Assembly: GCA_949358305.1 (NCBI GenBank)
Contig: OX442314.1
Span: 14,508,001-14,572,000 of the forward strand
DNA length: 64,000 bases
Source of the DNA: Strigamia acuminata
Taxonomy: Eukaryota
Direction: 5' to 3'
Shown: in pieces, positions 4,023 to 55,835 of the stretch
How the letters are laid out: every line of letters begins with the position of its first letter
Position numbering within the stretch: the first letter of the stretch is position 1
The notes under the pieces: model-generated
The model's input: only the letters and a program-made list of their open reading frames with translations
What the model was told of the DNA's origin: nothing
The model's database searches: none
Position numbers and translations under genes: made by a program

Positions 4023-4140
4023 TCACACCTCAGTAGCCAACATAGGATGAGAATACCGCTGTTGGTAATGATCAGGTATCACATATACAGAACTAGGAGG
4101 ACATGGCTCCGTTGAACATTGTGGCAACGTGGAGGAGTCA
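4023..4140 (-). CDS. Dl: Delta exon 10 (terminal), ends SVYVIPDHYQQRYSHPMLATEV*
   Basis: Polypyrimidine tract plus CAG acceptor (AG at 4142-4141); phase-2 join gives SDSSTLPQCSTEPCPPSSVYVIPDHYQQRYSHPMLATEV-TGA; total CDS 2496 nt = 831 aa plus stop. Confidence 0.92.
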
Positions 4141-4554
4141 CTGGAAAAAAGAAAAAAAAAGAAAAATTAATATTCATTTCCTCGACATGTGGTTTGGAAT
4201 TCAAAGTAGAGAATTAAAACGACTCTAGTGCATTGTTTCCACTTTTTAATGGTCATTTTTTAAACACCAAACTAATGAGCTACACTTGGTTTCATGGAAT
4301 TTGATGCCGCCTCCCGTGATGCCCGAACCATTGACCGGATCTAGGATCTAGACTTTCCCTCCCCTTCTTTTAACTTGTAATCCCGATCGTATAGAAGTAT
4401 AAAGGTTAAGGGCATTTCCTGATGAGACTAGGGGCACTCATCGTTGTAGGAAGTATAATGGCGGTATAAATAGCGTTAATTTGCATACAAGTGTTATTGA
4501 TGCGAAAATGCACTAGAGCAATGAGTTAGTGAATGCTAAATGATTGATATTTAC

Positions 4555-5599
4555 CTCCTGTTGCAGGATGTGGTGTCTATGCAGAGCGAATTCCTCTGCT
4601 CGACCGACAACTTCGAATGATCAAAGTCTCTAGTGTCAATTGATGCGGAGGTTTCTTGTTTGCCTGCCGCATTATTGGCAACGGGCGCCACATTTGGCAC
4701 CAAGTCTGTGTTGAGCTGTTTACACTTATTAGTCCTGTGCACGCTCAGCTCTTTACTGGAGCTCACCACATCAAAGTCCTCGTTGGTCAGCTTGAGATTG
4801 TGATTTTTGGTTCTATCCAACGTGTTGACGATCATCTGATTGTCACATTTGATATTGTTCATGCTGTTGACAGCATTCTGTTCGTTTTGTTTGCGCGCCT
4901 CCTCGTCGTGGCGCCTCATCTGTTTTTGTCGCCGACTCCGTAGGCACAAAATCACCACGATGGAACACAGGGCCAGTAAAGGCACGGCTGCTGATAGAGT
5001 GGCAATCAGAGCCACTTGGCCCGTCGACATGCCACTGTCTCCGTCAGTGTTAGGTTCAGACACGTGACGGGACACACCCACATTGTCACTACGGTGCTGG
5101 TGAGGCTCGCTGTCGGCCGTCGGCAGCCGCTGTGGCGGAGGAAGAGCGGCGGGCAGCACCGCGTCGCGCACCGCCGCTGAAAACTCACATCTTTCACCAG
5201 AAAATCCCGGTGGACACACACACTGGAAGGCATTCACCAAGTCTTCGCAACTGCCTCCGTTCAGGCACGTTTGCGAGGTGCATTCGTTTGAATAGATGGA
5301 ACAATCTTTGCCGGTAAATCCAGGTCGACACGAACACTGGAAATCGTTGACTAGATCGGTGCATTTGCCTCCATTGGCGCAGGGCTTCGTAAGGCAGTCG
5401 TCCACATTCACCTCGCACATAGAGCCCATGAAACCCGGCACACAAAGGCACTTAAAGTTATTCACCAGATCGACACATGTGCCGCCGTTGAGGCAAGGAT
5501 TCACACCGCAGTCGTTGATGTCATTCTCGCAGTTTCGACCCGTGAATCCCGTTGGGCACACGCACATGAACCCATTTAATTTATCCACGCAACTTCCAC
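4555..5599 (-). CDS. Dl: Delta exon 9, EGF6-9, transmembrane helix and most of the intracellular domain
   Basis: EGF repeats with DxNDC calcium-binding starts; TM VALIATLSAAVPLLALCSIVVILCL followed by RSRR; ICD motifs EARKQNEQNAV, IVNTLD, KQLNTD; donor AG|GTAAAT at 4554. Nine EGFs in total and no vWC domain, so Delta rather than Serrate/Jagged. Confidence 0.96.
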
Positions 5600-5724
5600 C
5601 TAAAGAATAAATTTAAAACAAAAATTTAATTTAATTTAATCTAATTTTTAATTTTTTTTTTTTTTTAAAATAATTTAATTCTAAATTTAAATTGTATGAA
5701 AAATATAAAGTGAACGGAATTTAC

Positions 5725-5938
5725 CATTTAGGCATGGATTTGATCCGCACTCGTCCTTCTGTCTTTCACAGTTGTTGCCATCGAATGCTGTTGGGCAGAT
5801 GCAATGGTAACTGCCCGATATTTGAAGGCAGGTACCGCCATTTTTGCATGGTTCATCTTGGCAGGTGTTAGCTGCAAATTCACATTGGCGACCGTGAAAT
5901 CCAGGTGAACAAACGCAAGTTGCATTGTTGTTAGTGAA
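5725..5938 (-). CDS. Dl: Delta exon 8, EGF4 to EGF6
   Basis: FTNNNATCVCSPGFHGRQCE...PCKNGGTC...ECGSNPCLNG; canonical AG/GT; phases 0->1. Confidence 0.95.
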
Positions 5939-6076
5939 CTAAACGATTTAAAAATAAAAAAAAAATAAAAATCAATAAGTTGAAAAAAAAATTTCTCGAA
6001 AATTAATTTGTAAAAGAAAATAATAATAATAATAAATAATAAATAATACTAATAATAAAGAAATGAGAATGTTTAC

Positions 6077-6249
6077 CTTATTGCAGGTGCCACCATTTTC
6101 ACAAGGTGTGCGAGTACAGTCGTCTCTTTCCTTCTCGCAGTCGTTTCCATTAAATCCTTCGCGACAGGTGCAAGTGTAACTTCCCTGACCCGTATTTGTA
6201 CAAGTTCCACCATTTTTACATGGTTTATGGTTTGTGCAATAATTGAGAT
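6077..6249 (-). CDS. Dl: Delta exon 7, EGF3 plus start of EGF4
   Basis: [39 protein letters not shown]...[10 protein letters not shown]; canonical AG/GT; phases 1->0. Confidence 0.96.
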
Positions 6250-6391
6250 CTGCGAATTAAAAGAAAAATTCTCAAATTAGTTATGCAACGACCAAGGACG
6301 ATGGCAAATATTTCCCAAGCTGATATTGATCTTGTATTGCACCCAAGCCCAACCCATAACCCATTCATATGAATATTGAAGCTCAGCTTAC

Positions 6392-6522
6392 CTTGATTAC
6401 AAAAAAGACCGCCCCAGCCTTCTTTGCAAATGCATTCCCACGGTTTCACACAGGTTCCATGAATGCAACCAGGGTATTGGATACATTGATCGCAGTTTGG
6501 ACCTTTCCAACCAATCAAACAT
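6392..6522 (-). CDS. Dl: Delta exon 6, end of EGF1 plus EGF2
   Basis: [43 protein letters not shown]; canonical AG/GT; phases 2->1. Confidence 0.96.
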
Positions 6523-7075
6523 CTAAGAAAAAATAAATAAACAAAAAAAACACATAAGTAAAAAGGATTATGATGATTGATGAAGAAAACACGTTGAAAA
6601 AAATTAAGTAATTAAACTTATATTAGAATTTTCCAATTTTTTTTTTAATGATAATAATAAAAAAACAAAGTGTCTTGATGGGAGCAACTTTCCCACCAGG
6701 ATCACAAGGGCAGTGGTCCCCTCAAGGCAGGGTTTTCTCAATGACCATATGAGATGGTAATAAGAAGCGAGGGGCGATGAAACTAAGAGGAGAAAATTTT
6801 TAAACCCCCTCGTATATGGAGAGAAAGAGCGAGAGAGAGAGAGGCAGCAGCCGTGGAAATGTTGTATCCGGTGGGTCGTTGACGAACCTCCCTTCTTCCG
6901 GTTCAACACCAGATTGAATTTCAACCCTGCCTTGTGTGATGCGAGTTGACAAGAATTTCAGTTTACATTTTTCCCCCGTACAAACTCGTCATTTTTTTAA
7001 AAAAAAAAAAATATTTTCTTTTCAAGTCAAGGTCAGAAAGATCGAGAAAAAAGGTGTTTTTATTTTGGTACTTAC

Positions 7076-7136
7076 TTGCACTCGTTTGGTTTCTCGCAGG
7101 AACCATATTCCTTGTGACATCCAGGGGCGCAGACAG
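7076..7136 (-). CDS. Dl: Delta exon 5, first part of EGF1
   Basis: AVCAPGCHKEYGSCEKPNEC (this frame is not in the ORF track); CCTCAG acceptor, GTAAGT donor; phases 1->2 fit the flanking exons. Confidence 0.93.
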
Positions 7137-8076
7137 CTGAGGAAGAAAAAAAATGAGGTCGGTTAGAAAACGAAAAAAGAAAAAAAAAAACTTGTTGATT
7201 ACTATCGACATGTACATTGCACTACACACTATAACTCGAATGAGAAAACTGGCTTTGGGACGCAGGTAGTAGTTCCCACGCTTGTCAGGGACGTAAGTTT
7301 TGGTCAAGGATCTCCTTATTGTCGCGTATCATTTTTTGAAATTTTTTTTATTTTTTATTAATGCGAGTATGATTCAATATTTTTCGATTAGAATCACTCA
7401 GAATTTGGTGGCATTTGTCGGAATGGGTACCGGTCAGGTGCCTGAATGGTACGCGTGGGAGGGTGTAAACGGGGTGGTGTTGGCTGGCCGCAACGAGACA
7501 GCTGCGGCTTTTGTGCCAATGTTTGCCGCTCCAGCTGTCGAAGTACAGAGAGAGAGAGAATGACAAAAGCTTTTTGGCTTTACTGGCGAGACGCCATCAT
7601 GGATTTGCCAATACGGCTCATTGTTCTAAGGGGGTGCAGGATGACCATTCGTTTCACCTGGTGCCTCAAGAGTCATTCCTTTCTCTCAATTACAAGAATT
7701 TTCACTTAAGCTCGAATATTTTTTTTCCTTTCTTTCTAAAGTTGCATAATTTTCCCGTGCGAGGTCGCCCGTAAGGCCAATGAGCTCGAATGCATAGTGG
7801 CGAAGTGTTTCACTTCACTCCCTTCCCTTTTACTTATTTTCATTTCTTTTGACAAAAAAAAAAAAAGAAAAAATTTTTTTCCCGAGTGAAGCCAAGCATT
7901 GTTTCATGGGCAGTTGCAGTCGCGCTTGGTTAGCCACGTGCAGCAATAAAAAGAAAAATCAACTCCCAACTCCTCCCCGTTCTATCATCTTTACTTGCCG
8001 ACCTTGAAGATGTCGGCGGGGGTGGATGAACATTAAGAAATAATTTTTTTCCCCGAAATAAATCAAAGACACTTAC

Positions 8077-8331
8077 CCTCTTCGCAATATTTTCCTTTCC
8101 AGCCAGGTAAACAGATCTGTTCGCCCTGCAGCGAGCATTCGTAGTGTCCGAACGTATCGTTGCGTGGACGACACAACTTGGTGCATCCTTCGCCGTAGTA
8201 ATGCTCCTCGCATCGCACGCGATATTCAAGTTGAAGCTGCGAAGGACCCGTCTGGTGCTCGTACTGGGTCCATTCATCACCAACTGTCAACCAACTTTGG
8301 TTTGCGAGACGTGTTAACAACACGTTGCTAC
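8077..8331 (-). CDS. Dl: Delta exon 4, end of C2 domain plus DSL domain
   Basis: YRVRCEEHYYGEGCTKLCRPRNDTFGHYECSLQGEQICLPGWKGKYC is a DSL domain; TTTTAG acceptor, GTAAGT donor. Confidence 0.96.
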
Positions 8332-9212
8332 CTAAAAATTAAAACAAACAACCTTTAATTTTCTTTCTTCGACTTTTCACCACAACAGTTCGAATTAAGA
8401 CGTCAAGAAAAGTGCTATTTGGAGCGTTTTAGGGGTTTTAGAGGGGGTAAAAGTTGTTTTATGTTACATTATACATTTTTTTTATTTATCTTGAGTTAAA
8501 ACAGAAGCCCACTCTGCAAATAACTCGCTTTTTAAGCCTGTAGATCGTTTAGCTAAACGCCGGAGTTGTCTGTGTCTGTTCGGCAATTGGCGCTGCATCA
8601 CACCACACCGAGTCACGGCTCAGTGAACCCCAAGAGGCCTCGTCAAAAGTGTGGGAACCGGACCGCCAACTCCTTGCAGGTCACAAAAGACACAAGGGAG
8701 TTTTCTCCTTCTTGCGTTCTCCCCTTTTTCGCTCTATTTCTAAAAAGGGGGGATAAGTTTAAAGGCCCACTTCCCCTTCGTCTTTTACGTCTACGCCGTG
8801 AAAAATCAAAACAAACAAGAAAATTTTCCTTTTTCTTGTGTTTAATCCTAATTTTCTATGGTTTACGCGTCCAAGGTTGGCGTTTGAAGGCTCTACAAAC
8901 TGGAGCCGCGGATCAACATCGCATATAGCTCTTGGTGGGCTCCATCTGGCTCCAGCGACGCATACACAGCGTCCTATCGACAGATGGTGGCACCGAAAAA
9001 CAATAACTCTAGCAGCTTTCCCGCTTGGCTTTCCCCCATTCGCCAGGACGCCGTCTCCATAGCAACCCTTCCTAGCGACGCTATATGGTGCGCTAGCGTT
9101 ACTTAATATAAAGCCAAGTTGTGGTTGAGACAAAAAAGAAATTAAACAGGAAATGGGAGGGAAATCGGAGACGAAATTAAATAAATAAATAAATAAACGG
9201 TAATTTTCTTAC

Positions 9213-9270
9213 CTCCAACCGGTGTTGAGTCCGATTCGTGCCATGCTTCCACAATGAGCGAAAAGGTTCC
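9213..9270 (-). CDS. Dl: Delta exon 3, C2/MNNL domain
   Basis: GTFSLIVEAWH motif; CAG acceptor and GTAAG donor; 58 nt, ends phase 1. Confidence 0.95.
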
Positions 9271-9500
9271 CTGCGGCAAAAACAACAACGTCTCGGTCAA
9301 GTAGGAACATAAGACGAAACGAACGGCCGTGAGAGTCGCGGCCGGCGTCCGTTCACAATACACAAACGAAATTTTTTTTTTTGGAAATTTAAATTTAAAT
9401 ATAGTGAAGAGAAGAATTTAAAAAAAAAAGTAAAAACATGCAAAGTAGATCGTACACACACAAATGATGTGAGTGGAGATTTGATAGTGCTTAAACTCAC

Positions 9501-9851
9501 CGGCCAAGAGAACTCGAACGGGAATCGAATTGGGTTGGTAAATCCTTGTATTTCAGACGTATCCGATATATGTACGGTGTTATTTCCAAGCACTGGTGTG
9601 ACAGTATCCCCAAAAGTACACGGAGAACTGAAGTCAATGGCAGCTTGATAATGCTTGAGGCACACGCGAAAGTATGTTTTACACACGCCACCACACTCTG
9701 GCGATATTGAAGATGACGAAGAAGTAGAAGAAGCCCTGCTCACTGCGTATCCATTGCTAGGGCCTTGGGAACAGCATTTGCCGTCGGCATCTCGACCCGC
9801 ATCGTTCAGAAACTCCATCAGACGTAATTCAAACACCCCTGAGCTTGCAAC
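9501..9851 (-). CDS. Dl: Delta exon 2, N-terminal C2/MNNL domain
   Basis: VASSGVFELRL...CKTYFRVCLKHYQ...PCTFG..TPVLG...NPIRFPFEFSWP, diagnostic of Notch ligands; acceptor TTTGCTCAG|, donor |GTGAGT. Confidence 0.96.
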
Positions 9852-9941
9852 CTGAGCAAAAAAAGAAAAATGAGTTAAAAATAAATTGGTTAGAAGGGAA
9901 ATGCGGAGTGTGCGCCAAAAAATGCTGCACGTTTTCCGTAC

Positions 9942-10031
9942 CTGATGCTGCGAGATGACGAGGATGTTGACCAGGATGAAGATCTGGAGGGCGGTCGCCG
10001 AGGCGAGCCGTGACACGAAGCGCCACCGCAT
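9942..10031 (-). CDS. Dl: Delta (Notch ligand) exon 1, signal peptide
   Basis: ATG at 10031; MRWRF...LQIFILVNILVISQHQ hydrophobic leader; donor CAG|GTACGG at 9941; phase 0. Confidence 0.88.
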
Positions 10032-10648: not shown

Positions 10649-10684
10649 CAATGAGGCTAGAGCGCGTGGTGTGGCGCTTATATA
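10649..10684 (-). promoter_or_regulatory. Delta core promoter: TATA box plus initiator
   Basis: Minus-strand TATATAA at 10684-10678 and Inr-like TCATTG with A at 10652 (TATA at about -30 to -32); implies a 5' UTR of about 620 nt. Confidence 0.65.
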
Positions 10685-13600
10685 GCCCCAGCTGCGCGCA
10701 TAAATTAGCGAGACCAGGTCTAGGGGAGAATAGCGTCTATTGAGATGGGGGGAAGGGAGGCTTGGCTCCATTCATAGCTCAATGGGATGCACGTGGTGTG
10801 CGCGAGGCGCATGTGCGAAGCATCTGCGCACGCGGGAGAAAAACCACAGCACAGAAATGAGATTAGTTGTAGTAATACTACGGCACTAGTCACGCTGTTT
10901 GTTAATAACATTTTACATTTCCTATCGAAAGTATTTCACTGGACAAGATTTTTATTAAATTAAAATAAAAAAAAGAATTTAATTTAAAATTTTTTTTATA
11001 AATTTTATAAATTTTATAATTTTTGTGTGTTTGGATCAAAGAGATATTTGTTGGTTTGGTGTTTATTGGTGTTTAAATGCGATGTTTGGAGAGAAAAAGA
11101 GGTTGGGGAAGTAGTAAAAAGACATTTGTTGCTTTAGCACAAGGTTTCACCATCACCAGCAGCCGCACGCGCCAGCTGCCATCTCCACCTGCCCCTTTTG
11201 TAAGACGCACGCGCGCTGCTGTCCAACTGCAAAGCAAAGTTTTCTTGGATTTGTAATCATTACACATGCACACAACGCTATGCAGCCATGTCCTATATCA
11301 ATTGGATTTGCATTGGCGGATGCCGTTGAAGGACACGGTCTGGGTCGCGTGTCTTGTGCCTTGCCGAGATTTAGCTTGAGGGCGTGAACAACGCCCGTTT
11401 GGAAAGTGAACGCGTGGCCGGCACGTGGCTCTAATTTTGTCCCGAAGGTCTTAATTGATTCATGGGCCGAAATCAGTACACACGCCGCTGAGAGGGTGGT
11501 GAGGTGGTGGCATAGTAAGAGAGGGGGTAGGGGATAAGGGGGTGGGAGTACGCACTAGTACCTCGACAGCTGCAGCACGTGGCACCTTCTGTGGCGCTAG
11601 TAAGGCGCGGTCCCACCTGGACGCGCAGAACAAGAGAGGAAGAGAAAAACAAACGAAAAACTCCTTGCACGGATGGATGATGCTCTTCTTATGGATAGAG
11701 AGAGGGTGGATCCTTGGCCGCTTTAATCGACCAACCGTGGCGCTAGCAAAGCACCTTTCGCTGAGGATGTCAGGATTTTTCACCTGGGTCCTTTCTTAAG
11801 TGACAAGAAACGCGTGCCGTCCATTTAAAAAAATAAATTAATATTTCAATGAAAATAAATAAATTAAATTAAATTGTAATAAAATCGACTCTCATCCGTG
11901 TATAGAAATTCAAGAAGTTTAGTTTTGAGGTTAGTGCGCATGCATTTTGAATACACTAAAGAGCAATGAGCAGATGGTGAACGCGTGTAGAGCGTCTGGT
12001 GAGCACCATGCACGCGCTTAAGCACACGTGTTGGAGGGGATGGGATATAGCAAAGTAGGAGCAGATGCTCGTGTGTGGTGGAATTCGGTAGCAGGGGTAG
12101 CAACACGTGTTACTACTGCCTAATCAAATTCACTATTGCAAACGCTTTTTAACACCAGGTGGCTACGGCCTGTTCAATGTGCCTAAGCTTAAACAGTTGA
12201 ATTGTAATGAATTTCGGGGATTTACTCGAGATTTCATTTGTTTATTTGTTTGTGCTCAAACCAACATGTTAGAAAAAATATTTTTTTTTAGAAATAAATA
12301 AAAGGAATGTTTGTGATTGGTAGAGGGACCCTCTTGTGTACGTCCCCATCTGGCCCCTCTTTCACCTGCCCGTCCAGTGGAGAGATGCGATCCCCTGGTC
12401 AGGTTTGTGTATGGGTAGTAATGTGATCATGTGATGGCGCGTGGCCAACTGTCTCCAGCTGGAAGCGTGCCAGCATTATTCATTGGAAATTGGAATTATT
12501 GACTCGAAGAAGTAATTAATGGACGTTATCATTATTTTTTGTGTGGATAAATGTGTTATTAAATTGATGGGAGACTAATAAATACTAAAGAAACGATACG
12601 GGAAGTTGAGAAATGGCTGTGATCGTGATTTGTCAATTAATTTTAAAATTTTTGTTTCGGAAATTCGTGTTGGAAATGACTATGTTTTCTCTTCCGCTCG
12701 GGGTCTTATTTAAAATTGGCAAAATATAAGCCGTTTACATTCGAATCCCTCCGGATGTTTGTATTTTCCGTTCCTTCTCTCATGGGTACATCGTATTTGA
12801 CTTTCGCTCACTGCGTTTTGACAAACCCCTAACTCAGTGCATTACATCTGGCCCACACCAGCTGCTTTAGACCCGAAAAAACACAACATTCTTAAAATTC
12901 TCATCAGTTATTAGACTAAATTCTACCAGCTATAGCACATGAAATATGAGTGCGGGAGGGATAAAAAAAAGAGCCAAACTTGCCTTATAATCGTCGAGAA
13001 ACTTCTTTGTGTGCCAACTCCAAAGCTCCAACGAGTGACTGAGCAACTCAACTGTTTGATTATCTCATCGCCACCCGCGCATCACGTACTAATTGAGCTG
13101 AGGCACGCGCTTAGCTTGAGGAAAAGAAAGGGAAACCCCACAAAAAAAAAGATAAAACTCTACGCGACTGCGCAAAACGGCAAAATATACGGGTGCCCTG
13201 ATTGCAAGGCACGCGCGACTTATAAATCCCTTAAACCGAAAAAAAATAACCCGATAAAAAATGAAAAAAGAAAAAAGAAAAAAGAAAAAAAAAATAAACT
13301 TTTCAATATTTACGATACAATTTAATATTTAAAATTTTATTAAATAGAGCGAGCGATAGAAATCAAAATGTTTTTTCACGTGATACCACTTTAACAACTT
13401 GCATCTGCAAGAAGCTTTTTCTTTCCCTTTAAATTATACACCACCTTGCCAACAGACACCATAAGGAGAGATGGATGCGAATCATGTGCATTCATTTCCG
13501 GCGAGGCGATAGGGTGGGGGTTTTTCAACACTTCCGGTAAGGAAATCCGAGGTCTTCTCTCTCTTATAAGAAATATCAAGGTGGGGATATGTGAATGAAA

Positions 13601-13904
13601 CGTTTCACACAAGCTAAGTTTGTGTGAAGACCTTTAAACACACCTTGTTTCGGCCGGAAATAGCCAAGCCCGTGGTATATTCATTCATGGGTAATGAGAA
13701 CAGGTTTTAATGGCTGGTGCATTCGATTCCCTCACCCCCGCATCGGCCCCTATTCAGTGCGTAGAGGGGATAAGAGTGGCGCAGGGGGAGACATTTTATT
13801 TTTAAAAGTCCTTTAGCCCACATGTCTTTTGCTGGGGGAACGGATGTTGAGCAGTTTTGGTCGGGTGGTAGTAGTCTAGACTCTTGTTTGGACGTTCGTG
13901 GGGC

Positions 13905-15920: not shown

Positions 15921-17385
15921 TCTTAGGTTCTTTCCTCTGATATCTCTTATTTTTATTCCGAGTCTTGTTTACAAGAAAACTCGAGATAAAGGGTCGATTT
16001 GAAGATTAGAAAAAGAGGTTAAAATTGAAATGTATAAATAAGAATTGATATAGAGAGGTATAAAGCAGAATTATGGCTTTGTTTTCTATGCGTAACATAA
16101 CTAACTCGTCGTTGAGCATTGCGTGTTGTTGTTAAAAGTTTTTTATATTTTCTTTTTTACAATTTTGTTTAGCGGTTCGTGTTAATATCTATTGATTGTC
16201 GCCAAAACAAATATACAGTAACTCGTGCTTTTCTTGCCGTGGTCAATTATTGACGTCCTTGCATGGAAATTGTTTTAAATTGGTGAGGAAGTCTTATTTT
16301 GGAAAATTTCCTGAAACGTTTAGTTGTGGGAGTAAAGTCTCTACTTGGGCATATAATTTCCCCATATACAGTCATTTAAAAACTGTTTGTTATGACATTG
16401 TCAGGTATAACCTCAAATATTTATTATTTACATCCATTTAAGTTATTAAAAATGTGTCTCAATATCATTTTTTCTGTTATTTCCTTATATTGTACAAATC
16501 CAACTTAATCTGTTTTCACCTTCACCCAATTTCCATAATGTGAATACATTTGCTATATTGTTTCCAACCTGTTCCTCATTCATTCGAGGCATTTCAAGTT
16601 AAACGTCACGTAGCAATTTTTTTTTTTTGAAAATAATGTGATACAATATGAATACAATACAATAGAATACAATATGCACATGTGTGTTTAGTTTTGTTAT
16701 TTAGCGGAGATATTAAAGAAAATTAAAGGGGAAGATGTGGTTAAAATATATCATTGTATATTTTTATTTAATTTTTTAATTTTAATTTTTAATTTTTATT
16801 TTTAATTTTTTGATTTTCCCGCCTTACGTTGCATTTGGCAATATAGGTCGATGAAGAAGAAAAGAGGAAGGTGTGCTACTAGGTATACGAGATGAATTCA
16901 GCCATCTGCTGCACACCGAAATGCATGGTTCTTTCTTATACCACGTGGACAAAACGCTCGGTAGGTGTGTTGGCCGGCTGTTCGTGCACGAGTTGCAGAG
17001 CAGATGGCCGAGTCACTGCGGCAGCTGCCCGAGAAAACCGAGCAGAGGGACCGAGCGAAGCCCTCACCTGTGATTGCTCCTTCTCCTTCTCTCTCTATAC
17101 GTGTATTAGGAAGTATGTCACAATGAAGTTTCTTAGCAACCCAAAATGCACCAGATGGTGATTGCTGTCATGGAGATGGGACCAAGGAGCAAAAAATGAG
17201 CATCTGCATCACTTATTGAACACTTGGGTTCGATAAAGGAATTTGAAAGAGATGATTTCCTTAAATGATGATTTATTTAGTTTAAACAGATGTTGCTTTG
17301 AATACGAAATCAAGTCAAATTGATCGAGGAAAAAGTGGTTGGAAGTGAAAATGGGATAAGAAAATAAATAATTGATTGTAAAAAC

Positions 17386-33143: not shown

Positions 33144-33223
33144 GTATGTTTTTTTTTTTGCTTTATTTAAACTACGGTTTAGAAAAACCCAATATCTCAG
33201 GCTTTAGGAAAACCCAATATATA

Positions 33224-45600: not shown

Positions 45601-46093
45601 GCAGGTGATAGTGAAATTCGAAATTGTGTACTCATTCATGGTAAAGTATGTGTAAGGTGCTTTGACATTAAGAATTAAAAGAAGGAAAAAATTGGAGTCA
45701 AGTGAATTAGATTCTAAAAAGAGAAAAAAGTAAATTGGTTTGCACAATTAAGGTCACTAGGTAGCGTTTGAGTGTTGCGTGTTCATCGAACATGAACTTG
45801 AACTTGAAGCTTACACACAGGATATTCTTAATTAAATAAGACAAAAGGATTTCAACCTCATCCACACCTTGATTCTTTTTTCTCTTCGTTTTATTTGCAC
45901 GCAAAGATGGTATTTTATATATAAATATTTATATATTTAATATCTCCTTTTAACTCTCACTTGGGCAATGTGCAACTGTGTCAGTTATGGATATAATTTT
46001 AGAAATTTGACATTAAAAAAATAAATGAAGACTGAATTCATTTATATATTTTTTTAAAGTTTAGTGGCTCATCTTTTGACTAGTGGCTGCTCC

Positions 46094-47025
46094 CAGCTGT
46101 CTCCTTCTCAACTTTTCCTTCCCCCTCTTTCCTCATCACCTACCCACCAGAGCTAACACACCACCTGGTGTACGAGGGGTATATACACAAACTCCATCTT
46201 ACAAACTCCTCACCATCTGCAGTCTTTCTTCACTCAGTTTCATTTTCGCTTTAAGAAAACCTTAATTTCTCTCGATAATCTTGTCGAAAAACAAACTATT
46301 TCCATCAATATCTTAATACAAACTTGCAGACCTCCCCATACCCATATCTCCTGAGCCCGCGGTATCACCTGGTGGCAGGATACGCTGCAGGTTGGCCACC
46401 TGGATCTTTGAGGGGATGTTCGCGCGTCCCCAGGTGTGCAGATGTAAGGATTTAGAGGATGTGTGCTTGAAACGCACGACTGTGTAAACGCAATCCTTTA
46501 GGCATCAAGAAATGCTTCTTACATACAGTAGTAAGAAACAGTATAAATATAAATGGGTTCTAATGAAAATTAGATTAATTTAAAACCAACCCTGTGGCGA
46601 AATGCACTTTCTCGTTTAATACACATAAATCTTAGGAGAAAAAAACGTAAACATTAACATAAGTAGTGAAGGAATGATGCATTGGTCGCCATCTGCATCG
46701 CCATGCAGTCAGTGCGCACAGAGGATGTCCTTCCTCTCTTTCTCTCTCTCTTTTTTTTGGTAGGTGCTTCTATATGTTGAATCAGTGGTGCATGGATGAA
46801 AAGACTGATGAACAGTGGCGGGTGTAGCGAGGTGCGGCACGTGGCAGCTGCTCACCTAACCACCTTGTCCTTTTAGCCATGCCCCTCTCTCTTCTTGGTC
46901 CAGAACCAGAAGGAGGGACCTGATCCTATTATTAAAGGTGAGCAAGAAACGAGTGAAGGGTGGTAGGTTTTTGGGTGGCACGCGCCAGCTGTCCTCTCAA
47001 CTCAGGAAGTGGCACGTGCCATCTG
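46094..47025. promoter_or_regulatory. Candidate bHLH-dependent enhancer (E-boxes plus Hes/E(spl) sites) in the FAM120 large intron
   Basis: E-boxes at 46094, 46162, 46214, 46366, 46397, 46431, 46439, 46845, 46986, 47020; TGGCACGCGCCA at 46976 and palindromic TGGCACGTGCCA at 47010. Confidence 0.55.
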
Positions 47026-48751
47026 GTTTCCTCTGGGAGACGGGCCCTGTCATGCAAAGTTTGGTCCAATTGCAAAACCACCTCTCGTACTCGTTGGTTT
47101 GCTGGGTTTTTGGGTGAAAGTTCACTCGCGAGTTGCCAGATGGTTGCAAACACCGGATGCCTGACATGCAGAAGTACTATATATGCGTTTTCCCACTCGA
47201 TTGGTCTGTTCCGAGCAAGTTGTTGATACCTGGTTAAATATTTACCTCGGTTTGTCCCAACGGCTTTATCGGGTTAAGTAGGTTTTAATGAAATGCGACA
47301 CGTTGTGTATACTTGTATCGCGCTCGAAACTCGTGTTTGGGCTTTTAAGGAAATGTTATATGGAGTTGTCAATGAGTTTGTCTCTCGAGAGGTTTGGCTC
47401 GGCGGGTTTTTAAATGTTGTTTGGGGGTTTTAAATTTCACTTTGGTTTTTTTTTTTTTTATTCTTTGTGGGTTTGCTCTTTTTTGTGCGTGGGTGGTGTT
47501 GAAACTTGAAATGTACAAAAGGGGGAAAGTAGCACCTGGTTAAGGTGAACTAAAACTCGATCTCCATGAGGGGTTAAAGGTTATTTTGACTTGATTTGCC
47601 GTCTGGTTGAGCAGTAAAACTGCGCAGCTGCAATTTTTTGGTTCCACTTAAATTTTTTTGAGTTTAATTGACGGTTGCTGAACAGATGTGAAATTTGTTC
47701 CATTTTTTAGAAGATTTTTAAAATTTTTTTTATTTGTTTTTATTACATAATTTCTCTTTTTTTTTTTAACATAAAATTTTATAATCAACTTGTTTACATT
47801 CTATTCGGATGGTGCGGTATCCTCAAAAACACGTTGTACGACAGAATTAGTCGCGCTCTTCACCCACTTCTAAGGTCCACTCTTCTTTTCTTCTCCCCTC
47901 TCTCTTTCTTAGATACTTTTCTTAAGAAACCATTTCAATAGTAGTATAAGGCCCCAGGCCAGGCACGAGCCATCAGAACCCCACCTTCTTTCATTCATAC
48001 ATCTCAAAGTTGTTTATATACAAATAGGTGCCTCGAAGCATGGTTTTTTATTATTATTATTCGCAATATTGTAAACAGTGCAATTTACAGCATCGGCATT
48101 GAAAACGAAACTCAGACTCATTTACAAAAGTAAGGTTCATATTGTAGAAATAAGAGCATTAGATTTTACAACTTTTACTTTACCCCTCTTTTCTTCTTCG
48201 TCAATAAAAAAAAAATAGATTTGAAGGTCAAGTGTGACTTATGCCTTGTCCAACAACGAATTTGTGATATTGACCTCATTTAGTCCGAAATGAAAATTGC
48301 ACTTTTGTCATCCAATGGCCCCAATAATACTAAATGAACCAGCAATATTGCTGCATTTGGGCAAATGGACTTTGGCGATTCTTTCATGCGACATTATTTA
48401 CCACAATTGAGGTCACGTGTGTGACCGGAAAATTATTTTTTACTTGAAAATTATCGGAAAAAAAAATATTTTTTTATTTTTTTATTTTCAATGGAATATT
48501 TGATTAATTTATTGAACTTTTTCTTGACACATTTCGAGGTTAGTTGTTCGCTAAAAGGGGTGCATAGGAAATCAGACGATCGGGAGGTGTAACGGAAGTA
48601 AATTGGACTGGGTGTGGAGAAGAGGGGGTTGAAGAGGACGCGATGGTTTAAATCTCCTTCACCTGGTGCCTTGGTGGAGAGGAAGGAAGCAGATTGGCAT
48701 ATGAATGGAAACGAGGCAAGTTGAAAGGCTTTTTAGACCAGTTTGGTCGGA

Positions 48752-48779
48752 GCAAAGCAAAGCAAGGCAAAGCAAAGCA
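48752..48779. repeat. (GCAAA)n pentanucleotide microsatellite
   Basis: gcaaa gcaaa gcaag gcaaa gcaaa gca. Confidence 0.7.
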
Positions 48780-51700
48780 GGTTCCTGAAGCGACGGCGAG
48801 AAGAGAAGAGAAATAGAGTAGAACTGCGAAACGAACGTCGTTTGACTGCAAATTTGAATGGCTAGGTATCTTTGATGTTTGGAAAAGCCATTCAAGTTTT
48901 AGTGACCACTATGGTTTTAAAGATGGGCTCTCTCCATTGATTTATTGTGGCGGTGGGGCAGTTTCACCACTTTTTATTTCACCTTGTAAAAGAGGGACGA
49001 AAATGAACAATATCGGTCAATTGGGATTAGGTTTTGTGCCTCATTTTCGCTGCAGATGCTCCGGGGGGGTTATCGGTTGGAGATAGCGAGGAACGTGCTG
49101 GAGTCGCGGGGGTGGACGGGCGCCATTCTTTATCAGCCAGGTGTCCTTGAGCAAATAGGCACGCGTCTCCAGGTGAGAGGGAAGAGATAAGATCGATACA
49201 TACCTTGTCGAAAATGGACCCTCTTCTTTATTTCTCTTTTTCAAGAATGCTTTTACACATTGATTGTGCAAAGTAATAAAATTTATTTTATTAGCTCATT
49301 TACTCTACTTTACTAAATGAGCCTAAATGAGAGCTGGAAACACAATTTTGTTCAAATTTTATTTTTGTTTTATTATTATTATGGTTTTATTTGTTTATTT
49401 GGTGGAAAGTTAATTGCAAATGGAAAGTTTTGGATTGACAGTCTTGGGGAATATTACTTAGATTCTAAGTTTTTGTTTACTCTCGTAATAATTTCGGTTT
49501 CGACCGGTTGCAATTGATCACAACCAAGTTGAAGCAGAAAATGGACACCACGATAACTCTACTGGTGATAAGTGTCACGAATAAATTGAGTTTGTGTCAA
49601 TTTTCTGCACAATATATGTTGCAGACAACGAACGAATCAGCAGTTAATGTTTTGCTTCAACATTTTGGCAAATTTTTACGAGTATTTTATCAAATTGATA
49701 CAATTTTGAAAGAAATAAAATGCTTATAAAATTTTGCTCTTTCGCACATTATCTATACATCGTCGACGACAAAATGATAAGTGCACTCCATTTTTCCATC
49801 ATTTCCTTGCAATGTGTGATACAAATAAATACTGAAACATTTGGGGCAATTAATAAACAAACATAAAATTTATTCCCAAAAAAAAAAAAAATTAAAAAAT
49901 AATGATAAACATAACTCGCTCTCGAAGTGAAAAATGTTGTTTACTGTTAAAACTGGACGAACAAAAGCGAGCATTATTTGACACACATTACTGGTTGTAT
50001 GACCCAAAAGCTGGCAGAAAATGGGGCCAACGATAAGAACGAGGATTGATGAAAAGTTTTGAGGGAGAAAAGGCGATTTGACTCGGAGGACTCATAAAAG
50101 AAAGTTAGACGTAGCAATTAGCCCTCAAATGAAGACGAGCCGCCATTAAAAGTGTTGCACGAAGGTCAGATGCCAACGAAATTGCTTCAAAGTGCCATCA
50201 AGTGGCGGCCTGGGGGCTGAAAAGTGAGCGGTAGCTGATACAGCACATGGTCTTACATAGTGTACACAGCTGGGAGCCTCGGGCCTACTATAAGACACAA
50301 ATTTCCTCCCTCCCTTTCCTCTCCCCATTTACTCACCTCACCCATCTTATGGTTCCTTACCTGATACAGTGCCTCAAGCCACACCTTGTTCTCTTATTGC
50401 CGACTAAACCTGTCTGAACAGCTGGCCTTGAGCTTGGCGGATCACCAAAGCAAAATCTGCGCCCATTAACGTGACACTTGTCCAGGTTTCAGTTTCTGTT
50501 GACATGTTTTTTTGAATATATTATTCAATTTGGGTTTTTTTTTTTTTTTTTTTTTTTTTAATTTTGTTGTTTGGAAAAAAGTGAATTGATGTTGGTTATG
50601 TAATAATGAAGACACGATTGAATATTGTTAATGGCGGATCTGTATATTATTGTTGATATCTCAAGTGTGACGAGAACTTGGGGGAAAATGATGATCGGGA
50701 AAGTCCTTGAAGGTGTTGGTGGACTTTTTTTTTTTTCTTGTTGTTTTGTTTGTGTTGTTGTGTGGTTTTTGTTTGAAATCGAAGGCCAAAAACATCGTTG
50801 CATCATTTTTAATTTTTTCGATCTTTATCTGCTGATCTCCATAAATATCAAGGTCGAAATGTTAGAAATAGAAATTTTGGTTTATGGTTTTTTAAAATAT
50901 TTTTTTTATTTTTTTTTTAAAAATAATTTTTTAATTATTTTACCTGAAATTGTTTTAGAAATTTTTTTGGTTGTGGGTGGGGTCAGGTGTGTCCAGATGT
51001 GCACTCGTGTGGTCAGTAAGCGTTGGATTGGGACTCATGTGGTCGAGTGGATGTCCATGGAGAGTTGAATATGAAAGCAACTGACCAAAACGATTCATTT
51101 CCGTTTTGGTGTGATTATCATGATAAATATTTGCTTTAATTATTGCCATTTTTTCTGTTTGCGTCGTTTTTCCTCGAAATTATTAATTATTTTTTTTTAT
51201 TTATTTTTTATTTTTTAATTTTTCTGACATTGGGAAAAATGGCACCAAGGGCGATTTTCGAGGTTTGACTGTTAGAATCGATGAGTGGCTCATTGAAATC
51301 AATTTTTTTTTCTGTTACCTGTCCAGGTGTTTTTCTTTTTGTTAACTTTCCAGCGTTCCCTTTATCCCATTTAGATATATCGCAGGTCAATGGTCATTTT
51401 TTCTGACTCAGTTGCCAACTGGCGAGGGCTCGTGATTGATTTTGTATATATTTTATTACAAAAAATTAAATTACAAGAATCATTAGAACGTGCTGTGACA
51501 ATAAAATACCGAACAATAATTTCATTGTGAGATGCCCAACCGACTTTATGTTGCAAAGTTATCGAAAATGATTTGTTATGGTGAAATTTTTCAGAGAAAT
51601 AAAATAATACATTAAAAAATGTAAACATTTGGCTGCCTGACCGTATGGTTCCACGAAAAAAGAATGAAAAAGCGAGGAGAGTTGACAGTGGGTTGATAAA

Positions 51701-54700
51701 TTGACATTTTTTTATTTATCCATTTGTCAAACCATGACCAATTAATCTGTTCTGCTTGTGTCTGTATTTGAATAAACAAAGAAAGAAAGAAAAACAGTCC
51801 ATTGGATTGAATTTACCTTGTAAAATATTTACCTTGATGTTTATTTATGTTAGCAAATTTTATTCCTAATTTTTTGTCTTTTTTTGTAATTTGTTTTTAA
51901 AAGGTTTGATGATGTTATTCATTTTTTCTTTCGTGAATTATTTAATGTGACTGCGGTGATTACGATGTTTAGGTGAATCATATTCGGAATTGCAAGGCTG
52001 TTCCGCTAAGATGATTGAGATTTTTTTATTTTATTTTTTACATTTTTTTTCGCCTTAATCGTTCTCGCTTCATTAAAAAACAATCGTAAATTTTTACCTT
52101 TTTAATTTTCAATTAGATGTTTTAAATTTCTCACGAATTTGTTTGTTGTCAACAGTTTTTTTTTTCTTGCGAAAATAAAAAGAAACAGACGATTTTTATT
52201 TGTTTGTTTAAAATGAATCACAAACAGCGAAGAAATTTTATGTAAATTCTTACAAAAAAAATATATCTTGTAAATATTTACTTGAAACTATCACTCGCTG
52301 GAATTTTTTTCACTTGATTCACCAACCAAACCGGAAACACCAGTACTCAAAGGCTTCAAAGCGCCATAAAGGGTCTGGCAACACGTACAAATTTACGTGA
52401 CAGGCTTTTGTAGTGTGCGAGGGAGTTGTGACCGTGAAATTATTAATTCCACACCAGACGGGAGATAAAATTGCCAGCAATTAGACTGATTAAAATGTCT
52501 GCTGCTCACTCAATTCGCATCCCCGCCATCTTTGCTTTCGAACACTTTAATAGTACCAACATTTCGATCCCTTCCACAAACTCACGCAGCAAAAACAACA
52601 CAAAACGGGTTTTCGAAGTTTTCGTTCATTTCTTCGACAGTTATAACTTCGAAACGGAATTCTAATCTCCCTTTGCTACAGTGCCATTTCTCCCATGATC
52701 ACTTCTTCGAATGGCTCACTTCTCCGAATGTTCATGTCTAAAAAAAAATATAAAAAAATTCAATTTTCAAAAATTGTGACGTCACAAGTCTCCCATTACC
52801 TCCACTCCGCCCTCGCCTATAGGTGCCGTTTCGCTGGAATTCCCAGCTTAATTGGTCTCGAGATGCCATCGACATGTATGACGTGCCGTAATGATTACTA
52901 TATATCAAGAGTTGTTTTACCCTAGTGGATATTAAAATGGAACGTGCGTCCCAAGCGTCTACTTTTTTGTGTACGTGAAAATTAATTCAGTATTAAGATA
53001 ATAGAAGCATTAATTATTTACTTGTTGTGATGCTGTGATTTGATCAACTGAATAATAATCTGCATCTGTGTGTATCATGGGCGTGTTTATGGGGATAATT
53101 ATTTTTTTCTTTGTGGGGGTTGACTGCACCCCTGCAGGAGTTTATTAATAAGGCAGTTTAATTAGCAGTGTGGATCGTGGAAGTGTAATTTGGTAGTAGG
53201 AGAGAATTTTAATTAGTGATTTCTCAGTGCCTGAAGATTGGTTCGATAATGAATTTAATCTCGTACTTCGAAAGAACCGCCTTTGCGTCATTGATACAAT
53301 AGGAAAGTGATTTTAATGACATTGATGGCGCTTTAAACTGTGAACAATTAATCAAAACCAGAAGCTTTCTATCAAAAGATCATCTTCAGTTGTCAAGCGA
53401 CGACCATTGAAGATTGAAGCGCCATTAATGTCCAAAGAAAGATTCAAACAGAGGTGTCTTCTGTGACTTTCTCACTGCTTTTGCAAAAGTTACAAATTGT
53501 ATTGCTACCATTTATTCATTTATTCATTTATTCGCTTGTTTTGTAACGGTGCCCAACTGTGTGGCCCAGGGCCTCGGAAATCCACTGTCTGCCTTTCGAG
53601 GTGTAATCTGATGTGGTCTACAATTAATTATGCAAAAACTGGAGTAAAGGGATACTAATTGACCCAGACAGATAAATAATGTCGCCACCACAACACTTAC
53701 CGTGCTTGGCATAAGTTTTCTCTCCTCATTGCTTGTAAATCTCATATTCATTACCGCATCAACAGAACTAATAATATTGTTTTATCTGTTTGTGAAACAT
53801 GGTTGTTATTGTCCAAACCAAGTAGTCCACAATGGACTTGAACATTCTTTTATGGCTTAAACTGCATTGCAAAACTTGACTGCTGCTTGATATTTGTTGT
53901 AATACAGAGTATTGCCACTAATGACAGAAAAAACATATCAGGCATTAAATCAACTAATTTAATGATCGTTATGCAGAGGCTGATTATTTGCTCCCAAGAT
54001 TTTATCAGCATCTGTCATGGTGAGTGCTTGGAAGGATGACCTACTGGGAATCCCAGTTGTTTTTCATTCTTGTCTACTGTTTTTATTGCAAGAACAACTG
54101 GCTATTGGCCTATAAATGGATGTTCTGCGTGTTCCCCAAGCTCTTGGAGCAAATGCGTCATTGATTGCTCAGAATAAAGTTATTTTACAAAACTGTCCTT
54201 ACATGTAATGCTATGGCCTTTGGGATAATGCCCAATTTAAATTGAAAATTCAAATACGGTGCAATTGTTGTCCCAAGACCGCAATGTTGTGTGATATTTT
54301 GTTACTATAAATAGTTTTTCGAATGTATAGTATTGTTGAATTATTCTAGAAAGTTCTATTAGACATCTGCACACGACTGTGTATTGTTGTGAACTATTGC
54401 AGTTTAGTTCCTGCATTAAAACGTTATCGTTTAGATGTTTGTTACAACTCGTCCCGAATCATCATTTCACCAACACCATTGTTTTTCCACATGTTGAAGC
54501 TATACCGTAAACGCATGCGCCATTGCATTTCTATTTGCTGAATTCATCCTAGTCTTGTGAGCTAATTGCAACTGGGATGGTGATTGCATTGACCCATTGT
54601 AGCGGGGTGAAGCTAAAAGTCGCAACCTCAGGTTTTTCCATCACAACCACTATGTAATGACCAAATGGTATTGCTGTGGTGGAAGGTGTGCGCGGATAGA

Positions 54701-55039
54701 AAGTTCTGGAAAACACTAGCTGTATTCAAAAAGTTGTGTTACAAGTGTTTTGGGTGTTTTTGTTTTGGTATTTATTTAACATCGCAAAACAAAAAAATCT
54801 AACACACTTGCAACAACGTTTTTAATGCAGTGTTGAAAAGGCAATTAATGTTTGTATTGAAATGCATATGTATTGTACATAAACATTTTCTGTTCGTTTA
54901 AATTAATAAACGACAAAATGGCTAGGCATGGATTTAAATATTAAATTTTGAAATCTTGAAAGATATGAATGGATTTTTGTTGAAATTGTAGATGATATTT
55001 TCTGAAGTGACTGAAATTGGTTTTGCTTTTTGTCGCTAG

Positions 55040-55203
55040 GTGGCACCACCTCACTGACGGAGCTATGGCTAGGCAATTCAGCGAAAGTGCGCTGGGAAGC
55101 GTTTTTGGGCTGCTTTAATAACACGTTTAGTCATCGACTATTGTTCGAACGTGTGCCTACTCATTTTATCGTATTATGTTGTGTACTAAATCACATGATT
55201 CAG
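55040..55203 (+). CDS. FAM120B: FAM120B-like coding exon 2
   Basis: GGTTSLTELWL resembles the FAM120B GGTPSL..LWL segment (from memory); phase-1 acceptor CGCTAG matches the exon-1 donor; donor CAG|GTGAAA. Confidence 0.85.
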
Positions 55204-55266
55204 GTGAAACAACTTTACGTCGATGAAAAAAAATCAATATTAATTTAAATGTGAAATTTTTTTTAG

Positions 55267-55359
55267 AATTTGAAAATTGAAGAGTGGGAAATTGATTCAT
55301 TTATTGCTCAAGCAGTCATCGTAAACAATTGCGATTTATCATTTCTGAAGAAAATTGAT
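55267..55359 (+). CDS. FAM120B: FAM120B-like coding exon 3
   Basis: NLKIEEWEIDSFIAQAVIVNNCDLSFLKKID contains the FAM120 FIAQA motif; TTTTAG acceptor; the donor GAT|GTATTT is weaker, so the 3' edge is less certain. Confidence 0.78.
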
Positions 55360-55435
55360 GTATTTGAACTTGTTAAAAAATTATTTTTTGTGATAAACTT
55401 TGTGAAATTTTTTTTTTTAATTATATTTCTTGAAG

Positions 55436-55642
55436 ATCGATCGACTTAATGCTCGTGCAGTTCATCTGAGTAGTATTTTTATGCGGGGCGTGTCATGTTC
55501 GTTACTCGTTCTGAGCACGTGCGGCTACCCGTTTCCGATGTCAAAAGCGATGCCATGGAACTTCTTCGACGGAAAACTTTTCCACCGCTGTTATTTACGT
55601 GCCAAGCAGAAGGAAAGTTTCGTTAATCGCCGCGACAAGTTT
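55436..55642 (+). CDS. FAM120B: FAM120B-like coding exon 4
   Basis: RAVHLSSIFMRG...CGYPFP...MPWNFFDGKLFH is the FAM120/Asteroid C-terminal signature; donor TTT|GTAAGT. Confidence 0.9.
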
Positions 55643-55754
55643 GTAAGTTTTTTCAAGGTCTTTTTTGCTGTTCGAATTATTTTTCTCATTGTTTTTTTCC
55701 TTTTTATTTATTTTACTTTATTTATTTTTATTTTTGTTTCTTTTTTGGCTACAG

Positions 55755-55835
55755 AAATTTCCACACCCATTGTTTACAGAATTAAAAGGTGTGGTTGTTG
55801 AGAATTCAAAATTTCATAAGCAAACAACTCAGTAA
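55755..55835 (+). CDS. FAM120B: FAM120B-like terminal coding exon
   Basis: Long pyrimidine tract plus TACAG acceptor; phase 0 KFPHPLFTELKGVVVENSKFHKQTTQ-TAA; total CDS 1788 nt = 595 aa plus stop. Confidence 0.75.
   Translation, partial: KFPHPLFTELKGVVVENSKFHKQTTQ

What the first reader, a model, noticed from the sequence alone, without database searches (positions are those of the whole stretch)
4023..55835. Delta and FAM120B head-to-head, as in human DLL1-FAM120B: candidate ancient genomic regulatory block
Seen: a Drosophila-type Delta (minus) and a FAM120B-like gene (plus) are divergently transcribed neighbours, and I recognised no gene between them. Established: human DLL1 and FAM120B are adjacent and divergent on 6q27. 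Inference: the linkage may date to the bilaterian ancestor and be held together because Delta enhancers sit inside the bystander FAM120 gene, which fits its inflated intron and Notch-pathway motif load.
Basis: partly seen in the sequence, partly recalled or inferred. Interest (0 to 1): 0.85.

Follow-up and report, generated by a model that had tools for sequence, protein, structure and literature searches.

The report
Ancient Delta–FAM120B neighbours in a centipede
In this centipede the Notch-signalling gene Delta sits head-to-head with the DNA-repair gene FAM120B, as in humans; the pairing likely dates to early bilaterian animals and is likely kept because Delta's control switches lie in FAM120B's long, conserved intron, but published gene-order tables already list the pair without naming it.

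Summary
Observation confirmed. The window (a Strigamia-like centipede) holds Delta (minus, 831 aa) and a true FAM120B/SAN1 orthologue (plus, 595 aa), divergent, with no recognisable gene between them. FAM120B has one 21.9-kb intron; its other coding introns are 63-112 bp. The linkage is very likely ancestral to bilaterians: accession and scaffold data link the pair in S. maritima, a cricket, a whitefly and Saccoglossus (4 of 6 genera I could pair; broken in amphioxus and Penaeus). The GRB reading has sequence support: 49% of the first 4.2 kb of the intron aligns to a relative at 8.4% substitutions, against 14% in the coding exon and 37-48% at synonymous sites; CACCTG and CAGCTG E-boxes rank 1 and 2 among all hexamers there. 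Su(H) sites are not enriched. No enhancer or contact was tested. Novelty is limited: human DLL1 with this bystander is a listed GRB (Akalin 2009 supplement), and the S. maritima, Lingula and sea-urchin linkage is block 3020 of Robert 2022's table, unnamed. New here: joining the two, orthology, extra lineages, intron conservation.

The parts
4023..10031 (-). Delta coding region, 10 exons (10031-9942, 9851-9501, 9270-9213, 8331-8077, 7136-7076, 6522-6392, 6249-6077, 5938-5725, 5599-4555, 4140-4023), 831 aa, ends in ATEV
   Evidence: 807/831 identical to S. maritima Delta T1IPW5; GT-AG introns
10678..10684 (-). TATA-like box (TATATAA) upstream of Delta; likely core promoter
   Evidence: sequence; start site not mapped
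10700..31200 (.). 20.5-kb gene-free intergenic stretch, rich in E-boxes (CACCTG 31 vs 5.3 expected, CACGCG 25 vs 4.6, CAGATG 24 vs 7.5); predicted Delta enhancer field
31277..31322 (+). predicted 5' untranslated exon of FAM120B (further 5' sequence not located)
   Evidence: loose end of the X17 contig resembles 31298-31318; AG and GT flanks in the sequence
31901..33143 (+). FAM120B/SAN1 first coding exon, 414 codons, FEN1/PIN-like nuclease domain with D44, D90, E159, D161, D180, D182, D233
33144..55039 (+). 21,896-bp phase-1 intron of FAM120B; CACCTG and CAGCTG are its two most enriched hexamers; predicted home of Delta enhancers
33573..33797 (.). conserved non-coding segment (24 substitutions in 225 bp vs organism D)
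33948..34610 (.). conserved non-coding segment (57 substitutions in 663 bp), with CAGSTG boxes and one Su(H) site
34827..35409 (.). conserved non-coding segment (43 substitutions in 583 bp), including 160 identical bases at 35003-35162, four CAGSTG boxes and one Su(H) site
36065..36221 (.). intron segment matching the mispredicted tail of S. maritima T1IPW4 (29 of 36 translated residues at 36114-36221)
36869..37284 (.). conserved non-coding segment (30 substitutions in 416 bp)
38716..38793 (.). intron segment matching the mispredicted tail of T1IPW4 (25 of 26 translated residues)
55040..55835 (+). last four coding exons of FAM120B (55040-55203, 55267-55359, 55436-55642, 55755-55835)
   Evidence: 25-36% identity to the C-terminal part of full-length FAM120B proteins

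Best explanation
Delta and FAM120B/SAN1 lie head-to-head about 21 kb apart, a remnant of a likely bilaterian-ancestral gene block, and they are likely held together because bHLH-bound Delta enhancers lie both between the genes and inside FAM120B's 21.9-kb intron, making FAM120B the bystander of a genomic regulatory block. Shown: gene structures, orthology, splicing across the intron in a relative, strong conservation of intron segments, E-box enrichment, linkage in several phyla. Inferred: that the conserved segments are enhancers, that their target is the Delta promoter (looping over the FAM120B promoter), that proneural activators or Snail/Zeb-type repressors bind the CAGSTG boxes (assignment recalled from general knowledge), and that this constraint, not slow rearrangement alone, keeps the pair. 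Lineages that moved or lost FAM120B would have kept or rebuilt the enhancers without it.
For: Orthology: window protein inside the FAM120B clade (SH-aLRT 98), grouping with FAM120A/C rejected (p-AU 0.0007) and with Asteroid/ASTE1 rejected (p-AU 0.014); 7 of 7 acidic active-site residues kept, several replaced in the FAM120A/C clade (clade named through P0401). Linkage: S. maritima T1IPW4/T1IPW5 adjacent accessions; Bemisia CAH0388496 vs CAH0388501 on one 62,539,693-bp contig; Gryllus GBIM_05708 vs GBIM_05717 on one 11,388,930-bp scaffold; a FAM120B record and Saccoglossus Delta share a 264,686-bp scaffold. Published rows: Lingula g9083 Delta next to g9084/g9085 of the FAM120 orthogroup; S. maritima SMAR003069/70 next to Dl SMAR003071; sea urchin FAM120 orthogroup with TIMM50, CHAC1, INO80 (PMC8851819 file 4). 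Human DLL1 (minus) is a listed GRB target whose only bystander lies on plus 16 kb away (PMC2688929 file 1). Intron: 2030 of 4157 bp aligned with 171 substitutions (8.4%) vs 177 in 1249 bp of exon and pS 0.37-0.48. Motifs: CACCTG 25 vs 5.9 and CAGCTG 15 vs 2.8 under local shuffles, ranks 1 and 2 of all hexamers, same top motif as the intergenic stretch; control hexamers flat; CAGSTG 41 in 21.9 kb vs 3 in 6.5 kb beyond the gene, p = 0.005. The intron site is shared: same phase-1 donor in 4 insect-host contigs, and truncated models of 2 insects, 2 birds and S. maritima stop or derail at this residue.
Against: No enhancer, chromatin or contact data. Unlinked in 4 of 4 Branchiostoma assemblies and 3 of 3 Penaeus species (different contig lengths); Delta is flanked by other genes in Capitella and Tribolium rows; flies and C. 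elegans lack the gene (PMC6030175), so the tie is breakable. Conservation was measured on 4.2 of 21.9 kb, against one relative, counting only pieces that align at 80% or more (which lowers the substitution rate), with no control intron from another locus; long arthropod introns are often more constrained than synonymous sites (recalled). The only control for E-box density is 6.5 kb of this window. E-boxes are not clearly concentrated in the aligned pieces (9 of 14 in 53% of the stretch). Su(H) sites are not enriched. Gene orientation is known only for this window and human; no sequence similarity between centipede and vertebrate elements was tested.
Confidence: 0.65

Rival explanations
1. The pair is a passive leftover of a slowly rearranging ancestral block (FEZ-SRSF-INO80-ChaC-Delta-FAM120B-TIMM50). 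All Delta enhancers that matter lie in the intergenic stretch; the intron's conservation is the general level for long introns in these species.
For: Strigamia keeps unusually much ancestral linkage (PMC4244043 passages); S. maritima keeps eight block-3020 genes together; the pair is broken in amphioxus and shrimps; I had no control intron.
Against: 160 identical bases and 8.4% substitutions where synonymous sites differ at 37-48%; the same E-box tops both the intergenic stretch and the intron and falls off past the gene; this one intron is 200-350 times longer than the gene's other coding introns; the human locus is independently called a GRB from human-zebrafish elements.
Confidence: 0.2
2. 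The intron elements are real regulatory DNA but serve another target: FAM120B itself, the kinase-like gene starting at 61.7 kb, or an unannotated RNA inside the intron.
For: Low-depth X17 contigs cover intron segments (depth 4-20 vs 161 on the exon; could be pre-mRNA or DNA); five Su(H)-type sites lie at 29.5-31.4 kb near the FAM120B 5' end; a second developmental-type gene lies 6 kb past FAM120B.
Against: E-box density is lowest on the side of the downstream gene (1 CAGSTG in 51.1-55.0 kb); SAN1 is a DNA-repair nuclease (PMC6030175), not a typical target of dense bHLH input; the downstream neighbour differs (Rap/ran-GAP in S. maritima, TIMM50 in Lingula and sea urchin) while Delta stays.
Confidence: 0.1
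3. The two genes are co-regulated from a shared bidirectional promoter, the other usual cause of conserved head-to-head pairs.
For: Head-to-head orientation in centipede and human; 5'-5' pairs are the most conserved class (PMC3514665 section 3).
Against: The 5' ends are about 20 kb apart here and 16 kb apart in human, far above the under-1-kb signature of bidirectional promoters; it does not explain the intron.
Confidence: 0.05

Closest known systems
Human DLL1 genomic regulatory block, chr6:170318193-170539512 (hg18), Akalin et al. 2009, PMC2688929 Additional file 1
   Same: DLL1 on minus as target; single bystander ENSG00000112584 on plus, 16 kb upstream, 98 kb long. That this id is FAM120B is recalled, and fits the gene order DLL1, FAM120B, PSMB1 in PMC9192176.
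   Different: Defined from human-zebrafish conserved elements only; no invertebrate considered; here the block is about 50 kb and the bystander has one giant intron.
Microsyntenic block 3020 ('Bilateria novel'), Robert et al. 2022, PMC8851819 Additional file 4
   Same: Lists S. maritima Dl with two FAM120-orthogroup models, ChaC, INO80-orthogroup, B52 and FEZ; Lingula Delta with FAM120 orthogroup and TIMM50; sea urchin FAM120 orthogroup with TIMM50, CHAC1, INO80 (all 54 rows seen).
   Different: The FAM120 genes are 'Unknown' there, A and B share one orthogroup, the only vertebrate rows are Latimeria DLL4-CHAC1-INO80, and the main text does not mention Delta or Notch. No regulatory reading is given.
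Delta-ChaC-SNF2(INO80) ancestral block, Simakov et al. 2013, PMC4085046 supplement
   Same: Same Delta locus, conserved in human (chr15), sea urchin, Capitella, Tribolium, amphioxus (6 rows).
   Different: Concerns Delta's other neighbours; none of the 6 rows has a FAM120-family member.
Ancient GRB-type conserved microsyntenic pairs (Irimia et al. 2012, PMC3514665; Otx and Islet cases)
   Same: Developmental gene plus unrelated bystander with a long, conserved intron; predictions 1-3 of that paper are met here.
   Different: Their prediction 4 (enhancers acting on the target, shown by 3C and transgenics) is untested here; whether this pair is in their Table S2 could not be seen.
SAN1/FAM120B 5' exonuclease (Andrews et al. 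2018, PMC6030175)
   Same: FEN1-like domain with the acidic residues intact, including D90.
   Different: The centipede protein is 595 aa and lacks the central repeat region described for mammals; activity not tested.

Membership tests
FAM120B/SAN1 | groups with vertebrate FAM120B, apart from FAM120A/C and Asteroid/ASTE1 | tested here: met
   IQ-TREE, 46 rows, 277 columns: FAM120B clade SH-aLRT 98; AU tests reject A/C (0.0007) and ASTE1 (0.014). Rows were picked by me from 150 representatives and named hits.
FAM120B/SAN1 | acidic active-site residues of the FEN1-like domain, including D90 | tested here: met
   7 of 7 present; D90 from PMC6030175
FAM120B/SAN1 | 5' exonuclease activity on single-stranded DNA | not testable with these tools
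   needs an assay
FAM120A/C | about 1000-1200 aa with degenerate active site | tested here: not met
   595 aa, residues intact
Delta ligands | MNNL, DSL, EGF repeats, transmembrane stretch, C-terminal ATEV; no Serrate-type length | tested here: met
Conserved ancestral microsyntenic pair (Irimia 2012) | four or fewer genes apart in four or more major lineages | tested here: met
   vertebrates, arthropods (window; Bemisia), brachiopod, ambulacrarians (Saccoglossus same 265-kb scaffold; sea urchin by combining). Gene counts are unknown for Saccoglossus, and B vs A was not tested for the Lingula and sea-urchin genes.
Genomic regulatory block | developmental target plus unrelated bystander | tested here: met
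   Delta plus a DNA-repair nuclease
Genomic regulatory block | unusually long bystander intron | tested here: met
   21,896 bp vs 63, 76, 112 bp; Delta's introns are 90-940 bp
Genomic regulatory block | conserved non-coding elements in the bystander intron, above background | tested here: inconclusive
   far above synonymous sites on 4.2 of 21.9 kb, but no control intron from elsewhere in the genome
Genomic regulatory block | those elements act as enhancers on the target promoter | not testable with these tools
   needs contact maps and reporters
Bidirectional promoter pair | start sites under 1 kb apart | tested here: not met
   about 20 kb between the Delta TATA box and the most 5' FAM120B exon found; the true FAM120B start is not mapped

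The most novel reading that the evidence does not exclude
[quoted passage not shown] Human variants inside FAM120B, such as the T1D signal rs1075163 (PMC13205159), would then act through DLL1.
Probability: 0.35. Interest if true: 0.62.

Novelty: new member of a known kind. Interest (0 to 1): 0.42.

Why it matters
It would be a regulatory block conserved from centipedes to humans around a Notch ligand, a haploinsufficient disease gene in people (PMC9192176). It points to where distal Delta enhancers lie in a model for segmentation and neurogenesis, gives short candidate elements to test, and suggests reading FAM120B-intronic human variants as DLL1 regulatory variants. It also corrects a public gene model whose tail is made of intron DNA. 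The kind of system is well known and the linkage is already tabulated, so the gain is a named, testable case rather than a new principle.

Tried and rejected
No whole genome is held for the window, so no genome-wide control for motif density or intron length. The first homologue search excluded proteins over 725 aa, so it could not test FAM120A; the unrestricted search was used instead. The profile search returned only 28 proteins. Organisms B and C of the run search share only a small transposon with the window and were useless for footprinting. No RNA holder was listed. Parts of 31700-37300 without cover are not read as unconserved. Conservation beyond 37.3 kb and in the intergenic stretch was not measured, apart from one protein-level match at 38.7 kb. 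The metagenome scan gave 14 short loci, none with Delta; too short to count as unlinked. A second amphioxus Delta record (P0205) is an allele-level copy (97.6%), so hidden Delta paralogy does not rescue the amphioxus link. Frankliniella and Anabrus could not be paired (different species or no FAM120B record); one further insect FAM120B record (XP_063242329) had its species name cut off and was left out of the count; eight other representatives had no Delta partner. I first read sea urchin as unlinked from Simakov 2013 rows and dropped that. Simakov 2013 puts the FAM120B family on a different ancestral group from DLL in amphioxus and Nematostella; this is unexplained for Nematostella. The idea that the S. 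maritima C-terminal tail is a real alternative end was rejected: it is unlike FAM120B (18 of 142 residues) and its pieces fall in intron DNA. Text searches that found no description of the invertebrate pair; supplements of PMC4729200 held no hit (2 files). Irimia 2012 supplements could not be read and Robert 2022 file 4 is cut as stored; both may bear on novelty.
Full report
What the window is. The best matches of both genes are from the centipede Strigamia maritima: Delta 807 of 831 residues and the large FAM120 exon 84%. The window is therefore from a close but different geophilomorph centipede. No whole genome was available.

The two genes. Delta has ten coding exons on the minus strand from 10031 to 4023, with GT-AG introns of 90-940 bp and MNNL, DSL and EGF domains; a TATA-like box lies at 10678-10684. 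The plus-strand gene starts at 31901 with a 1243-bp exon, then a 21,896-bp intron and four small exons ending at 55835, giving 595 aa. A contig of run X17 (RNA by the tool's guess, organism D) matches 31897-33145 and continues with the first letters of the 55040 exon, and its 5' loose end resembles 31298-31318, so a short untranslated exon is predicted there. Of 112 ORFs of 78 aa or more outside the two genes none reached a Pfam cut-off, and Rfam found no family. The two 5' ends are about 20 kb apart.

Which FAM120. A search without length limit gave 824 proteins at E 0.001 or better; of the 150 listed, about 600-aa proteins ranked first and 800-1200-aa proteins far lower. One of the long clade is FAM120A/C-like by the ESM Atlas. 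In a 46-row tree the window protein sits in the FAM120B clade (SH-aLRT 98) inside an arthropod subclade (98); forcing it with FAM120A/C or with Asteroid/ASTE1 is rejected (p-AU 0.0007 and 0.014). It keeps seven acidic active-site residues, several of which the A/C clade has replaced, among them D90, needed for nuclease activity of SAN1/FAM120B (PMC6030175, passages). The bystander is thus a predicted DNA-repair exonuclease.

How old the link is. I paired Delta and FAM120B records by accession series and contig length. Linked, 4 of 6 genera: S. maritima (T1IPW4, T1IPW5), Bemisia (CAH0388496 and CAH0388501, one contig), Gryllus (GBIM_05708 and GBIM_05717, one scaffold; up to eight loci between), and Saccoglossus (Delta and a FAM120B record both on a 264,686-bp scaffold; the species name of the second was cut off, the match rests on the identical length). 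Unlinked, 2 of 6: Branchiostoma (4 of 4 assemblies) and Penaeus (3 of 3 species, one Delta cluster examined). This method gives no orientation. Published tables add Lingula (Delta g9083, FAM120 orthogroup g9084-85, TIMM50 g9086) and sea urchin (FAM120 orthogroup among TIMM50, CHAC1, INO80, with Delta placed there by a second table). Capitella and Tribolium rows show Delta flanked by other genes, and flies and C. elegans lack the gene. Human order is DLL1, FAM120B, PSMB1 (PMC9192176, passages), with DLL1 on minus and its neighbour on plus 16 kb away. Presence in vertebrates, ambulacrarians, a spiralian and two arthropod classes is best explained by one bilaterian-ancestral block with repeated losses; I put this at about 0.93. 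The likely order is FEZ, SRSF, INO80, ChaC, Delta, FAM120B, TIMM50 (inferred).

Is the intron regulatory. Against organism D the coding exon differs at 177 of 1249 bases (14%); synonymous sites differ at 0.48 (69 codons, counted from listed differences) or about 0.37 (whole exon, using P0001 as stand-in). In the first 4157 bp of the intron, 2030 bp align with 171 substitutions (8.4%), including 160 identical bases. This is a lower bound on cover and, since only pieces at 80% or better are laid, biased low on divergence. Independently, the S. maritima model T1IPW4 ends in about 180 residues that are not FAM120B-like but match five collinear places in this intron at up to 25 of 26 translated residues, and that species' gene is split in two models. 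Under 60-bp local dinucleotide shuffles CACCTG (25 vs 5.9) and CAGCTG (15 vs 2.8) rank first and second of all hexamers in the intron, CACCTG also ranks first between the genes (31 vs 5.3), and eight control hexamers are near expectation except GACCTC at about twofold. CAGSTG density drops past the gene (41 in 21.9 kb vs 3 in 6.5 kb, p 0.005). Su(H) sites are not enriched (6 vs 3.1), and E-boxes are not clearly concentrated in aligned pieces (9 of 14 in 53%). The intron position is old: four insect-host contigs have the same phase-1 donor (three others, of a more divergent copy, were not clear), and truncated models of Periplaneta, Cryptotermes and two birds end at that residue, a weak hint of a long intron there too.

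Mechanism. Most likely, bHLH-bound Delta enhancers spread over about 40 kb upstream of Delta, past the FAM120B promoter and into its intron; a break between the genes would strip Delta of them, so the pair persists (0.65). The enhancer identity, target and binding factors are inferred. Rivals are passive retention in a slow genome (0.2), another target (0.1) and a shared promoter (0.05). The losses in amphioxus, shrimps and others show that the constraint, if real, can be escaped.

Prior art. Akalin 2009 lists DLL1 as a GRB target with exactly one bystander at FAM120B's place (supplement rows and passages). Robert 2022 lists the S. maritima, Lingula and sea-urchin genes in block 3020, with the FAM120 genes unnamed and no vertebrate DLL1 row (supplement rows and passages). 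Simakov 2013 lists Delta-ChaC-SNF2 without FAM120 (supplement rows only). For Irimia 2012 I read the abstract, part 1 of the Results and the GRB section; its tables were not available. Chipman 2014 and PMC13205159 were seen as passages. Eight full-text searches found no paper that states the centipede-human link; subscription papers are outside the library.

Verdict. Real, ancient and probably regulatory, but of a known kind and already present, unnamed, in two supplements. Interest 0.42.

Noticed in passing
UniProt T1IPW4 (P0001) vs window 33947-38793: The S. maritima FAM120B model has a spurious C-terminal tail built from conserved intron DNA; the true 3' exons are likely the second model of the pair SMAR003069/70.
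   Followed up: yes
61692-62210 (+): First coding exon of a predicted membrane-anchored kinase resembling PKDCC/VLK (name recalled from memory; no Pfam or PDB hit). The published S. maritima block has a Rap/ran-GAP gene next to FAM120B instead.
   Followed up: partly
33222-33410 and 38925-39113: Two 189-bp copies (90% alike) of a small inverted-repeat transposon; very high depth in runs of organisms B and C, absent at this site in organism D.
   Followed up: partly
41323-42657: 1.3-kb element with 429-bp arms 98% complementary, likely a recent non-autonomous transposon inside the intron.
   Followed up: no
29492-31423: Five Su(H)-type sites (CGTGGGAA or CGTGAGAA) within 2 kb of the FAM120B 5' end, the densest cluster in the window; close site pairs also at 13604/13621 and 27846/27856.
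   Followed up: no
2700-2646 (-): Short open stretch after an AG that could be an alternative last exon of Delta without the ATEV end; speculative, weak acceptor.
   Followed up: no
63171-63544: Minisatellite, 20-bp unit, about 19 copies.
   Followed up: no
PMC8851819 file 4, block 3020: TIMM50 follows the FAM120 gene in Lingula and sea urchin; human TIMM50 lies beside DLL3 (recalled), which suggests that the three vertebrate DLL paralogues each kept different neighbours of one ancestral block.
   Followed up: partly
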